A DNA stretch of 64,000 nt, from NCBI GenBank assembly GCA_964535565.1, contig CAZHUJ010000002.1, positions 99,493 to 163,492 of the forward strand, given 5' to 3'. Every line of letters starts with the position of its first letter. Position 1 is the first letter of the stretch. The notes beneath the pieces are model-generated. The model saw only the letters and a list, made by a program, of their open reading frames with translations. It did not search any database and had not been told where the DNA came from. Shown here piece after piece: positions 31,081 through 58,193 of this stretch. The position numbers and the translations under genes are program-made. The DNA is from an uncultured Pseudohongiella sp. Its GTDB lineage: Bacteria > Pseudomonadota > Gammaproteobacteria > Pseudomonadales > Pseudohongiellaceae.

Positions 31081-31186
31081 CGGCCAAGGCAGTTAATCTT
31101 CAGGACACGCCCGTAAATACGTCCCTGTAGGGCTCGTCGGCGGACTTCCTGTCCGCCGACGGTCCTTCAGATTTAACTCCCTTGGC
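31081..31186. repeat. Palindromic REP/MITE-like element, copy A (partial core)
   Basis: The outer imperfect inverted repeat GGCCAAGG...CCTTGGCC encloses GGACACGCCCGTAAATACGTCCCTGTAGGGCTCGTCGGCGGAC-ttcct-GTCCGCCGACGGTCC. The core is shared with the copies at 46348, 57232 and 57477. Confidence 0.6.
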
Positions 31187-46347: not shown

Positions 46348-46464
46348 GCGGAGTGGGGGTGGTACAGGGCTGAAGGACCGTCGGCGCCCATGGATGGGCG
46401 ACGCCGAGCCCTCCAGGGATGGATTTACGGGCGTGTCCTGAAGCCTGTACCACCCCCGCTCCGC
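46348..46464 (+). repeat. Palindromic REP/MITE-like element, copy B (full length)
   Basis: An outer ~30 bp inverted repeat (GCGGAGTGGGGGTGGTACAGGGCTGAAGGAC / GTCCTGAAGCCTGTACCACCCCCGCTCCGC) encloses the core CGTCGGCGCCCATGGATGGGCGACGCCGAGCCCTCCAGGGATGGATTTACGGGCGTGTCC. Confidence 0.65.
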
Positions 46465-46476
46465 GGTGACCACTGA

Positions 46477-47697
<1,221 letters not shown>

Positions 47698-56612: not shown

Positions 56613-58193
56613 TCAGCTTTTTGCCAGCGACTGCAGGCAGTGTTGCCAGCGTGACGCCAGATTTGTTGCTTTAAGTGCCAGCACTGACTGCGGCACGGTG
56701 CGTTGGCCTGGGTGCTGCGCCTGGTATTGAGCGTGGCGCACTATCAGCCCGGCAGCGGCGTCTGCCTGCTGCCCAAGGCTTAATCCTTCGACCGGATACA
56801 GCCCTTCTGCCGGCAAATATTCCGGATAAGCCAGTGCAGCCGGTGCGATGGCAATACATCCCAGAGCAGCAGCCTCCAGCATTGATAGTCCCTGGAAATC
56901 GTGGTCGGCGGTGGACAACACCATGTCGGCGCTGTGCAGGATGGCCTCGTATTGCTGGCGCTCCTCAATAAAACGGTTGATGCCGGGTTCAATTCCCTGG
57001 GCCTGGTAATAGTCAGCCAGAATCTGTTCCAGTTGGTCGAAAGCAGCAGGGCGCTGGCGGAAGCGTTGGCCCAACAGATGAAGCTGGAAACGCAGGTTGT
57101 GCTTGATCAGCGCCTGGATAACCAGCAGCAGGCGCTCGGGGCCTTTGTCATGTTCATGTCTATGGTTCCAGACGATGCTGATGGGTTTTGGTGCAGCAGG
57201 CTGTGAATGGGAATTATGCGGGTTCAGCGCTGCGGGGTTGGAGGGTGATGCTGCGGACACGCCGTAAACCCCTCCGTGGGGGCTCGCGTCGCCCATCCAT
57301 GGGCTCCGACGGTCCGCTGCATCACCCTCCAACCCCACATCGCGGCCAGTGCCACTCCCGTCCACATTTGATGAGTCCGCCAGCCTGAAGCCGCGTTGAC
57401 CCGATGCGGAGTCATGTTCCTGATGCATACCATTGGTCTGGGAAGGTGCACACTTGTCGTCAGAGTGCAGAGTCAGCGGTGCAGGCAGACCTTGCGGTAA
57501 GGGCGAACCGTCGGAGCCCAAGGATGGGCGACGCGAGCCTCCAGGGACGGATACACGGCGTGTCCGAACTACCGCAAGGTCTGCCTGTGCCGCGGAACAT
57601 AACTCCGACCCCACAAACAACCCATCTGCCAAAGGCACCGGCAGTACCAACGACTTTGCCGTCAACAGGGACACCAATTCTGGCGGCACCTCGTCCGGCA
57701 AACGCCGCAACAGCGCCCTCACACCCTCCAGAAAACTGCGCCGGTTCCACTCACTGTTAAACGCCACCTGATCCGCACACAGTGCCGAATACAGGTTCAC
57801 CATTGCTGGCTCCACCGACGGATGCTGTTTGCCACTGTCAGGATAGGCCAACTGGTTTTCATGGAAATACACCAGCGTTGGAACACGTGCCAGTTCCGGC
57901 ACAAAACCGCGCAAACTCGCCAGATCACAGACCGATGTGGCGATTAACAGGTCATAGTTGTCAGTCAACTTCTGGCGGTGGTTAAATGCCCAGCTCAGAC
58001 TGTTGCCGCGAATGCGCCAGGAAAAATAGCGTGCTGGCAAAACCAGATGGGTCCAGTGGCAGTGTGGAAACATAGTGACCAGCTGCTGACGCCAATGTTG
58101 ATGGCTGGCAGCGTCGTAGGCACTGAGCAGCAGAATGCGTTTAGTGGGGGAGTCGATGGAAACCATGTCAAGGGAGTCTGCGGGAAACACCAT
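56613..58193 (-). CDS. DUF3524-type GT-B glycosyltransferase (homologue of tRNA-queuosine alpha-mannosyltransferase) carrying a ~140 aa in-frame repeat-derived insertion
   Basis: N-terminal DUF3524-like ILLLSAYDAASHQHWRQQLV...LPARYFSWRIRGNSL and a C-terminal GT1-like half (WNHRHEHDKGPE...DFQGLSMLEAAALGC). The start may be the ATG at 58166. Confidence 0.7.
   Translation of the reverse strand: MVFPADSLDMVSIDSPTKRILLLSAYDAASHQHWRQQLVTMFPHCHWTHLVLPARYFSWRIRGNSLSWAFNHRQKLTDNYDLLIATSVCDLASLRGFVPELARVPTLVYFHENQLAYPDSGKQHPSVEPAMVNLYSALCADQVAFNSEWNRRSFLEGVRALLRRLPDEVPPELVSLLTAKSLVLPVPLADGLFVGSELCSAAQADLAVVRTRRVSVPGGSRRPSLGSDGSPLPQGLPAPLTLHSDDKCAPSQTNGMHQEHDSASGQRGFRLADSSNVDGSGTGRDVGLEGDAADRRSPWMGDASPHGGVYGVSAASPSNPAALNPHNSHSQPAAPKPISIVWNHRHEHDKGPERLLLVIQALIKHNLRFQLHLLGQRFRQRPAAFDQLEQILADYYQAQGIEPGINRFIEERQQYEAILHSADMVLSTADHDFQGLSMLEAAALGCIAIAPAALAYPEYLPAEGLYPVEGLSLGQQADAAAGLIVRHAQYQAQHPGQRTVPQSVLALKATNLASRWQHCLQSLAKS
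57232..57338 (-). repeat. Palindromic REP/MITE-like element, copy C, inside the glycosyltransferase ORF
   Basis: GCGGGGTTGGAGGGTGATGCTGCGGAC...core in reverse orientation (GGACACGCCGTAAACCCCTCCGTGGGGGCTCGCGTCGCCCATCCATGGGCTCCGACGGTCC)...GTCCGCTGCATCACCCTCCAACCCCAC. Confidence 0.65.
57477..57592 (+). repeat. Palindromic REP/MITE-like element, copy D, inside the glycosyltransferase ORF
   Basis: The outer inverted repeat CGGTGCAGGCAGACCTTGCGGTAAG / CTACCGCAAGGTCTGCCTGTGCCG encloses the core CGTCGGAGCCCAAGGATGGGCGACGCGAGCCTCCAGGGACGGATACACGGCGTGTCC. Confidence 0.65.

What the first reader, a model, noticed from the sequence alone, without database searches (positions are those of the whole stretch)
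57190..57640. Two palindromic repeat elements inserted in frame inside a glycosyltransferase gene
The 526 aa DUF3524 glycosyltransferase ORF stays open across two ~110 bp copies of the same REP/MITE-like element that occurs intergenically at 31081 and 46348. The two intragenic copies (57232-57338 and 57477-57592) are in opposite orientations. They translate to Gly/Ser/Pro/Arg-rich peptide (GGSRRPSLGSDGSPLPQGLPAP and DRRSPWMGDASPHGGVYGVSAASPSNP). Together with the DNA between them they add about 140 residues between the two Rossmann halves, from ...PLADGLF to PISIVWNHRHEHDKG. Either the element has been exapted as a disordered interdomain linker, or the gene is a cryptic pseudogene that is open only by chance.
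Basis: seen in the sequence. Interest (0 to 1): 0.65.

Follow-up and report, generated by a model that had tools for sequence, protein, structure and literature searches.

The report
Hairpin repeats tolerated inside a glycosyltransferase
Two copies of a small hairpin-forming repeat sit in frame in the flexible link between the two halves of an intact glycosyltransferase gene; this is a clear new example of a known phenomenon, selfish palindromic DNA tolerated inside bacterial genes.

Summary
The 526-aa QTMAN_N/GT-B glycosyltransferase ORF (56613-58193, minus strand) carries a 441-nt linker (57174-57614). Orthologues have about 16-20 residues there. The linker holds two oppositely oriented copies of an element of about 110 nt, which also lies between genes at 46363-46451 and 31089-31178.

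It is not an assembly artefact: independent metagenome assemblies carry both copies. It is not a pseudogene:
- Both enzyme halves show dN/dS of 0.10-0.27.
- Only the gene's own frame is open across the insert.
- Four close relatives with different insert states all keep the frame.

The insert is predicted to be disordered, and orthologues read the same element in different frames. So it is a tolerated passenger, not an exapted peptide.

The element belongs to a very widespread family with a conserved three-way-junction core on a long outer stem that differs between copies. Its core is homologous to the Yersinia YPAL/RU-2 repeat. Its two hairpin loops match the CsrA/RsmA binding consensus CANGGANG. 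Orthologous copies, including the intragenic ones, keep their stems paired through mirrored changes.

In-frame REP, RPE, ERIC and YPAL insertions are already published, so this is a new member of a known kind. The CsrA link is untested.

The parts
56613..58193 (-). Intact glycosyltransferase gene (526-aa ORF; databases call it from Met10, 517 aa): QTMAN_N/DUF3524 N-half plus GT1-type C-half, GT-B fold
57630..58139 (-). N-terminal Rossmann half (residues 19-188, PF12038 QTMAN_N)
   Evidence: pLDDT mostly 85-96; dN/dS about 0.10 against four relatives
57174..57614 (-). Expanded interdomain linker (residues 194-340, 441 nt). Open only in the gene frame. No confident fold over most of it: a low-confidence helix at residues 190-212, then pLDDT <50 at 231-316
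   Evidence: orthologues have about 16-20 residues here
57477..57592 (+). Element copy 2. The core (57507-57564) is on the + strand, so it is antisense in the mRNA. It encodes ...RTRRVSVPGGSRRPSLGSDGS...
   Evidence: model hit 57492-57579 (+), 52.4 bits, E 1.8e-10; fold -78.8 kcal/mol, z -6.9; the copy in relative L007 at the corresponding place in the linker (orthology not established) is read in another frame
57339..57476 (-). Spacer between the two copies (..LTLHSDDKCAPSQTNGMHQEHDSASGQRGFRLADSSNVDGSGTGRDV..). It is unrelated to the spacers of similar copy pairs in other loci
57232..57338 (-). Element copy 1. The core (57256-57313) is on the - strand, so it is sense in the mRNA and places two GGA hairpin loops there. 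It has an outer stem of about 27 bp with one mismatch. It encodes GLEGDAADRRSPWMGDASPHGGVYGVSAASPSNP
   Evidence: model hit 57241-57327 (-), 72.8 bits, E 1.7e-15; fold -89.1 kcal/mol, z -9.1; orthologous copies in L006 and L005
56613..57173 (-). C-terminal Rossmann half (residues 341-526, GT1-type)
   Evidence: pLDDT 84-98; dN/dS 0.16-0.27
46363..46451 (+). Intergenic copy between prfC and tgt. It is orthologous to copies in two relatives whose outer arms have diverged while staying paired
31089..31178 (-). Intergenic copy between convergent ORFs, with a compensated variant of hairpin 1 (GGACAGGAAGTCC)

Best explanation
The gene encodes a working GT-B glycosyltransferase of the bacterial QTMAN_N/DUF3524 family. 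Its short interdomain loop has been colonised by a small non-autonomous hairpin repeat, a distant relative of the Yersinia YPAL/RU-2 elements. Shown: two copies in opposite orientation plus the DNA between them add about 130 residues. The reading frame is kept by selection, and both catalytic halves remain under purifying selection. The added segment is predicted to be disordered, and its amino-acid sequence is free to change, even its reading frame. The nucleic-acid hairpin stays paired through mirrored changes in its arms. Inferred: insertions are tolerated here because the loop between the two Rossmann domains is a surface linker. Alleles that broke the frame were purged. The element persists as a DNA/RNA-level parasite or module rather than for its peptide. 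The long stems probably lower or modulate expression of the mRNA (ribosome pausing, RNase III, or binding of CsrA/RsmA to the sense copy), but this was not tested.
For: Gene identity and fold. Insert boundaries against 16 and then 68 homologues. Purifying selection, dN/dS 0.10-0.27 in both halves against four insert-bearing or insert-derived relatives. Frame 0 has no stop in 441 nt, the other five frames have 2-6, and 1.5% of shuffles are open in a given frame. Relatives have five different linker states, all open: antisense copy only; sense copy plus a partial remnant; sense copy with a nested insert; core lost with one arm kept. The same element is read in different frames (window copy 2 against L007), and there is a local compensated frameshift inside copy 1 against L006. 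Disorder, pLDDT <50 at residues 231-316. The sequence is real: JGI contig L009, Logan contig X1 with 0 differences, and X5 from another study with 7 SNPs and no gaps. Metatranscriptome contigs cross gene/element junctions without joints. Family structure and covariation. Arms are near-random between orthologous copies (64-82% identical against 60% for shuffles) yet paired, while the core is 77-93% identical. Other in-frame copies of the same family lie in a UvrA-like gene. Published precedent for in-frame REP, RPE, ERIC and YPAL insertions: PMC3733652, PMC2759123, PMC2229807.
Against: There is no protein-level evidence that the full-length polypeptide is made or active. The RNA evidence is low-depth metatranscriptome contigs that may contain DNA. 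dN/dS is summed over whole lineages and cannot be assigned strictly to the time after insertion. A 130-residue floppy linker could impair GT-B domain closure, so reduced function is not excluded. Stem maintenance could be a mechanical by-product (template switching or gene conversion between palindrome arms) rather than selection.
Confidence: 0.8

Rival explanations
1. Exapted linker: the element-derived peptide has been recruited as a functional disordered spacer or interaction segment, and is now selected at the protein level.
For: The insert sits exactly between the two Rossmann halves and is Gly/Ser/Pro/Arg-rich and predicted to be disordered. Elements at this site persist across relatives separated by dS of about 0.7-1.3. 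X5 shows 7 SNPs in the flanking coding DNA and none in the insert.
Against: The peptide is not conserved. The arms encode GLEGDAAD/VSAASPSNP here and GRDSRESD/VSESRVSLP in L006. Copy 2 is read in a different frame in L007. One close relative (P0005) lacks the core and most orthologues lack any insert. What is conserved is DNA/RNA pairing, not residues.
Confidence: 0.12
2. RNA-level module: the sense copy (57232-57338) works inside the mRNA as a CsrA/RsmA-binding or RNase-processing hairpin that sets expression of the glycosyltransferase. The hairpin is kept by selection for that role.
For: Both core loops match the Rsm/CsrA consensus CANGGANG in 90 of 108 family members, although the search pattern forced only one loop (consensus from PMC6849547 citing Schubert 2007). 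The loops stay constant while the stems covary. The family is biased in orientation: the upstream gene is on the same strand in 20 cases against 6, and the downstream gene is on the opposite strand in 25 against 9. Stems stay paired in orthologous copies despite near-random arm sequences.
Against: No binding or expression data exist. The second intragenic copy is antisense and shows no GGA loops in the mRNA, yet it is equally well kept. Gene calls for the orientation test were heuristic. Palindrome arms can be homogenised by DNA-level processes. No csrA gene lies in the window, and the rest of the genome could not be searched.
Confidence: 0.2
3. Cryptic pseudogene whose frame is open only by chance.
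For: The insert is GC-rich (63%), which lowers stop-codon density. Other frames carry ORFs of 96-118 aa across parts of it.
Against: dN/dS is 0.10-0.27 in both halves. Only frame 0 is stop-free over 441 nt, and 1.5% of shuffles are. All five related alleles are open, and frameshifts inside the element are compensated within about 13 nt. Invariant family residues are retained.
Confidence: 0.03
4. Assembly artefact (collapsed or chimeric repeats placed inside the gene).
For: k-mer assemblers break at this palindrome: Logan contig L008 ends in the core of copy 1, and contigs from X6 and X8 are fragmented there.
Against: A 400-kb JGI contig, a 42-kb Logan contig with 0 differences and a contig from a different study with 7 SNPs all run through both copies without gaps. 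The protein is recorded from NCBI, JGI and Logan sources.
Confidence: 0.01

Closest known systems
Rickettsia palindromic elements (RPE; Ogata et al. 2000, as cited in PMC2759123, PMC2229807 and PMC3733652)
   Same: Palindromic repeats of about 100-150 bp inserted in frame in otherwise intact protein-coding genes, tolerated as extra surface or linker segments, sometimes twice in one gene.
   Different: A different host lineage: Rickettsia against a Pseudohongiella-like free-living gammaproteobacterium. Sequence similarity was not tested. Here the core carries two CANGGANG loops and the outer stems differ between copies.
YPAL / RU-2 miniature insertion sequences of Yersinia (De Gregorio et al. 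2006; Delihas 2007, PMC2759123, PMC2229807); Rfam RF02770 Ysr224
   Same: The core of about 53 nt is homologous. A profile of this family hits the published Y. pestis RU-2 sequence at nt 65-117 with 33 bits, E 1.5e-8, against 8 bits for the best shuffle (alignment). Both are GC-rich long stem-loops, mostly intergenic and co-transcribed with neighbouring genes, and occasionally fused in frame to ORFs.
   Different: YPAL is 167-168 bp with stems shared among copies in one genome. These copies are about 107-116 nt with different stems in each copy. The Rfam Ysr224 model scores only 15.8 bits against a gathering score of 70. The variable target-site duplications described for YPAL could not be checked.
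Intragenic GTAG- and CGTC-tagged REPs (Di Nocera, De Gregorio and Rocco 2013, PMC3733652)
   Same: Short palindromes found inside genes, often twice, notably in uvrA and other repair genes. They sit mostly downstream of genes and no dedicated transposase is known for the CGTC class. Hairpin 1 here begins with CGTC, has a stem of about 8-9 bp and a 4-nt loop. The same family also sits in frame in a UvrA-like gene.
   Different: REPs are single stem-loops of 20-40 bp. This element is a three-way junction of two hairpins on a long outer stem. The A/T stem positions and the CCA tail described for CGTC REPs are not evident.
CsrA/RsmA-binding hairpins of CsrB/RsmX/Y/Z sponge RNAs and target mRNAs
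   Same: GGA is presented in hairpin loops that match (A/U)CANGGANG(U/A). Two sites lie about 25 nt apart, which suits one CsrA dimer.
   Different: Those are dedicated sRNA genes or 5' leaders, not dispersed mobile palindromes. No binding is shown here.

Membership tests
QTMAN_N / DUF3524 GT-B glycosyltransferases (PF12038) | N-terminal QTMAN_N domain above Pfam's gathering score | tested here: met
   195.3 bits against a cut-off of 25, residues 19-188, full profile 1-168
QTMAN_N / DUF3524 GT-B glycosyltransferases (PF12038) | Second Rossmann half of GT1/GT4 type and an overall GT-B fold | tested here: met
   Glyco_trans_1_4 scores 26.6 bits, just under its cut-off of 27. The AF2 model has two confident Rossmann halves. 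Top Foldseek PDB matches are GT-B/GT4 enzymes (GlgM, glycogen synthase, BshA, MshA), E 1e-10 to 1e-8.
QTMAN_N / DUF3524 GT-B glycosyltransferases (PF12038) | tRNA-queuosine glycosylating activity | not testable with these tools
   The family name comes from the vertebrate enzyme. No sequence-related solved structure exists. tgt lies 9 kb away in the window, which is only suggestive.
In-frame palindromic element insertions (RPE-like phenomenon) | A repeat that also occurs elsewhere in the genome lies inside an ORF without breaking it | tested here: met
   Four model hits in the window, two of them inside the 526-aa ORF
In-frame palindromic element insertions (RPE-like phenomenon) | The host gene stays functional and the insertion is at a permissive surface or linker position | tested here: met
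   dN/dS 0.10-0.27; insertion between the two Rossmann halves with pLDDT <50. Function itself was not assayed.
YPAL / RU-2 (Rfam Ysr224, RF02770) | Match to the Rfam model at its gathering score | tested here: not met
   15.8 bits against 70, on the strand opposite to the GGA loops. No gathering-level Rfam hit in the window or in 10 family loci.
YPAL / RU-2 (Rfam Ysr224, RF02770) | Sequence homology to the published 168-nt RU-2 element | tested here: met
   Core only. nhmmer gives 33.0 bits, E 1.5e-8, for RU-2 nt 65-117. There are 29 invariant columns in an 8-sequence alignment. The stems are not alignable.
YPAL / RU-2 (Rfam Ysr224, RF02770) | Length of about 168 bp, stems shared among copies, variable 3-26 bp target-site duplications next to dyad symmetries | tested here: inconclusive
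   Copies are about 107-116 nt with different stems in each. No true empty site was found. The P0005 allele looks like a deletion between CGAC microhomologies.
CGTC-tagged REPs | CGTC tetranucleotide at one end of a stem-loop with an 8-9 bp stem and 4-5 nt loop, a 3-nt tail, and mostly head-to-head dimers | tested here: inconclusive
   Hairpin 1 starts with CGTC and has a stem of about 8-9 bp with a 4-nt loop. The element as a whole is a three-way junction and no CCA tail was seen. The comparison rests only on the description in PMC3733652.
CsrA/RsmA binding sites | GGA in a hairpin loop matching CANGGANG, with two sites per dimer | tested here: met
   90 of 108 cores carry two CANGGANG motifs. 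CA.GGA of hairpin 1 is at least 90% conserved while its stem covaries.
CsrA/RsmA binding sites | Actual binding by CsrA/RsmA and a regulatory effect | not testable with these tools
No paper linking CsrA to dispersed repeats was found.

The most novel reading that the evidence does not exclude
The YPAL-like element is not merely selfish DNA. It is a dispersed RNA module whose conserved tip offers a ready-made docking site for one CsrA/RsmA dimer. Selection keeps its hairpin paired even inside a coding region. The sense copy in this mRNA would then tie production of a putative queuosine-modifying glycosyltransferase to the global Csr/Rsm regulator. Collectively the copies would buffer free CsrA.
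Probability: 0.15. Interest if true: 0.7.

Novelty: new member of a known kind. Interest (0 to 1): 0.4.

Why it matters
This is a clean case of a bacterial enzyme absorbing about 130 extra residues of repeat-derived sequence in its interdomain loop without losing selective constraint. The series of related alleles lets constraint on the frame, the peptide and the nucleic-acid hairpin be assessed separately: the frame and the hairpin are kept, the peptide is not. This is useful for annotation, because such genes should not be called pseudogenes and the odd peptides should not be read as domains. It also bears on how palindromic repeats persist. In addition, this locus belongs to a very widespread, uncatalogued relative of YPAL whose loops look like CsrA sites, and that is directly testable.

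Tried and rejected
the genome-contig scan found only three Halopseudomonas-type loci. The exact 26-mer was too narrow; a looser pattern was needed.
- **Rfam:** there was no gathering-level match in the window or in 10 family loci. E-value hits were spurious miRNA-like long hairpins plus a weak Ysr224 match.
- **Composite transposon idea:** I asked whether the two intragenic copies are the ends of one composite element, because L024 and L051 also carry divergent pairs about 200 nt apart. The spacers share no similarity, so this was rejected.
- **Outer arm copied from the target flank at insertion:** P0005 keeps only the right arm. But P0003 and P0004 share an unusual core variant and bracket P0005, so P0005 is better read as a deletion between CGAC microhomologies. 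Orthologous copies show the arms diverging in place.
- **Splicing or bypass of the element:** no joints appear in the metatranscriptome contigs.
- **csrA in the window:** none found.
- **PDB by sequence:** no hit.
- **De Gregorio 2006 paper (PMC1636318):** not held.
Full report
**1. The observation**

The minus-strand ORF 56613-58193 is uninterrupted and 526 aa long. Pfam assigns residues 19-188 to QTMAN_N (PF12038, formerly DUF3524; 195 bits, E 8e-58) and residues 334-460 to GT1-type C-terminal domains. The closest named homologues come from Pseudohongiella and Pseudohongiellaceae, annotated as DUF3524 or 'tRNA-queuosine alpha-mannosyltransferase domain-containing protein'.

Most of the 120 best homologues are 376-395 aa long. 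In alignments with 16 and then 68 of them, the window protein has 147 residues between ...PVPLADGLF and IVWNHRHEHDKG, where typical orthologues have about 16-20.

A covariance model of the family finds exactly four copies in the 64 kb:
- 57241-57327 (-)
- 57492-57579 (+)
- 46363-46451 (+)
- 31089-31178 (-)

The first two lie inside the ORF in opposite orientation. The other two lie between ORFs.

**2. The sequence is real and the gene is not a pseudogene**

The same protein is on record from NCBI, JGI and Logan sources. Three independent assemblies run through both copies:
- A 400-kb JGI metagenome contig (L009) carries both copies, with two residue changes.
- A 42-kb Logan contig from a wastewater run covers 56900-58000 with no difference.
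- A contig from a sludge run of another study covers 56900-57946 with seven SNPs and no gap.

Short-read assemblers often break inside the palindrome. That explains the truncated 227-aa 'proteins' in the same cluster.

Four close relatives were compared at the codon level. dN/dS is 0.10-0.11 for the N-half and 0.16-0.27 for the C-half, at dS of 0.7-1.3. Across the 441-nt linker (57174-57614) the gene's frame has no stop, while the other five frames have 2-6. Only 1.5% of composition-matched shuffles are open in a given frame.

**3. Structure**

AlphaFold2 with 69 sequences gives two confident Rossmann halves, with pLDDT mostly 85-98. A long segment has pLDDT below 50 (residues 231-316) and no predicted secondary structure from about 213 to 337. 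Foldseek places the model among GT-B/GT4 enzymes: GlgM, glycogen synthase, sucrose-phosphate synthase, BshA and MshA. The insert therefore lies in the loop that joins the two domains of a GT-B enzyme.

**4. What relatives show**

Synteny is conserved in all relatives: a divergent acyl-CoA synthetase, then the glycosyltransferase, then an SLT_2 transglycosylase. The linker exists in five states, all in frame:
- **The window:** two copies.
- **P0002 (L007):** only the antisense copy.
- **P0003 (L006):** the sense copy plus a degenerate partial copy further on.
- **P0004 (L005):** the sense copy with an extra segment of about 45 nt nested in hairpin 1.
- **P0005 (L004):** the left arm and the core are missing and the right arm remains. 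The junction sits at a CGAC microhomology. P0003 and P0004 share an unusual core variant and P0005 is nearest to P0004, so this is best read as a secondary deletion.

The peptide is not conserved. In the window the antisense core is read as ..RTRRVSVPGGSRRPSLGSDGS.., and in P0002 as ..SDTPLIHPWRLVSPIPGLQRS.., one base out of register. Within the sense copy, the window and P0003 differ by a 1-nt deletion and a 1-nt insertion about 13 nt apart, so the frame is restored locally. Selection therefore acts on keeping a frame, not on the residues.

**5. What the element is**

Each copy is a long hairpin, at -49 to -89 kcal/mol and z = -5 to -9. A conserved core of about 58 nt sits on an outer stem that differs between copies.

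They come from soils, sediments, marine and engineered systems. Among the 98 members with full flanks, the outer stem spans a median of 32 bp, is 92.5% paired and falls into 53 unrelated sequence classes.

On a 110-sequence alignment I tested a three-way junction: the outer stem, hairpin 1 and hairpin 2 closed by a GC/GC clamp. It is 89.6% paired, against 30-44% when the partners are slid. The covariation score is 0.50 against 0.08-0.11, and 20 pairs change on both sides.

The two hairpin loops stay constant while their stems covary. Both read CANGGANG in 90 of 108 members, although the search pattern forced only the second loop. CANGGANG is the published Rsm/CsrA recognition consensus (PMC6849547, citing Schubert et al. 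2007).

With heuristic ORF calls and one representative per stem class, the gene on the 5' side of the core is co-directional in 20 of 26 cases. The gene on the 3' side is opposed in 25 of 34. My own exact binomial calculation gives a two-sided p of about 0.009 for each. The typical position is therefore a sense copy in a 3' UTR, often between convergent genes.

**6. Relation to known repeats**

Rfam 15 has no family for it at gathering level. The only meaningful weak hit is Ysr224, at 15.8 bits against a threshold of 70. Ysr224 is modelled on the opposite strand of the Yersinia YPAL repeat.

The 168-nt RU-2/YPAL sequence printed in PMC2759123 aligns with the family core. A profile HMM of the core matches RU-2 nt 65-117 at 33 bits, E 1.5e-8, while the best of 2000 shuffles scores 8 bits. 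So the element is a distant, much more widespread relative of YPAL. It does not meet the Rfam threshold, is shorter, and lacks YPAL's shared stems.

The literature already describes in-frame copies of RPE, ERIC/RU-1, YPAL/RU-2 and GTAG/CGTC REPs in genes. These include double insertions and a striking preference for uvrA and other repair genes (PMC3733652, PMC2759123, PMC2229807). Two of my metagenome loci carry this same element in frame inside a UvrA-like double ABC ATPase, again read in two different frames.

**7. How the different stems arise**

The copy upstream of tgt has orthologues in two relatives whose Tgt proteins are 93% and 91% identical to the window's. Between these orthologous copies the core is 77-93% identical. 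The 28-nt arms are only 71-82% identical, against about 60% for shuffled 28-mers. Yet the simple no-bulge register count gives 30 of 32 paired arm positions in L130 and 29 of 31 in L131, and the window copy pairs once bulges are allowed (RNAfold).

The intragenic copies behave the same way. Copy 1 against L006 has arms 64-68% identical and a core 88% identical. Copy 2 against L007 has arms 64-71% identical and a core 90% identical. Indels are mirrored in the two arms.

The stems therefore drift at close to the neutral rate but in a concerted, mirror-image way, even where both arms are translated. I cannot tell whether this reflects selection on an RNA or DNA hairpin, or mechanical homogenisation of palindrome arms through template switching or intra-palindrome conversion.

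**8. Expression**

Three metatranscriptomic runs hold parts of the gene. Their contigs run from the C-half into copy 1 (57112-57257), across the spacer into copy 2 (57338-57499), and from copy 2 into the N-half (57525-57773). None shows a joint. Depth is low and DNA carry-over is possible. This is weak evidence that the element stays in the transcript.

**9. Verdict**

This is a real, selectively maintained glycosyltransferase gene. Its interdomain loop has been colonised, probably more than once, by a YPAL-like hairpin repeat. The best reading is a tolerated passenger in a permissive linker. The cryptic pseudogene and the assembly artefact are rejected. Exaptation of the peptide is unsupported.

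The phenomenon is well known, so the finding is a new member of a known kind. What lifts it somewhat above routine:
- The allelic series shows that the frame and the hairpin are conserved while the peptide is not.
- The locus belongs to a very widespread, uncatalogued family whose loops match CsrA sites.

Earlier agents of this scan reached the CsrA and YPAL leads independently on other genomes. I treated those as leads and re-derived or tested them here. They are not independent support.

Noticed in passing
window 46363-46451 against L130:2293-2381 and L131:307-395: At the orthologous prfC-tgt spacer, hairpin 1 of the window copy (GCCCATGGATGGGC) differs from that of both relatives (GGACAGGACGTCC). 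It matches the two intragenic copies instead, while the relatives' version resembles window copy 4 at 31089-31178. This suggests gene conversion between dispersed copies within a genome.
   Followed up: partly
L005:3540-3880 (P0004 allele): A segment of about 45 nt is nested inside hairpin 1 of the intragenic element. It contains its own small hairpin, CCGCCATCCATGGCGG (a GGA-type loop on the other strand), and the frame is still open. It looks like an insertion into a hairpin loop.
   Followed up: no
L095:11542-11629 and L061:1507-1593: The same element family sits in frame between the two halves of a UvrA-like double ABC ATPase in two soil-type contigs, read in different frames. This echoes the published excess of REP insertions in uvrA (PMC3733652).
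   Followed up: partly
L024:217-568 and L051:903-1257, compared with window 57232-57592: In three unrelated genomes two copies lie in the same divergent arrangement (minus-strand copy first, plus-strand copy second), with 194-214 nt between the cores. The spacers are unrelated. Coincidence or a preferred pairing geometry is unresolved.
   Followed up: partly
It may be a very diverged relative or chance.
   Followed up: no
window 46570-47697 and 56613-58193: tgt, the enzyme that inserts the queuosine precursor into tRNA, lies with yajC-secDF about 9 kb from the QTMAN_N-family glycosyltransferase. Nothing is known about queuosine glycosylation in bacteria, so the proximity is only a hint.
   Followed up: no
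window 57188-57224: One low-depth landfill contig (X8, depth 2.4, 12 other differences) skips 37 nt here and has one other base in their place. The net loss is 36 nt, a frame-preserving length variant of the linker in a related strain.
   Followed up: no
L006:2650-2760 (P0003 allele): Downstream of the sense copy there is a partial, degenerate antisense fragment of hairpin 1 (GCGCCCATCAAGGGCGCCGGCGGTCC), still in frame. This is further evidence that the linker has been hit repeatedly.
   Followed up: no
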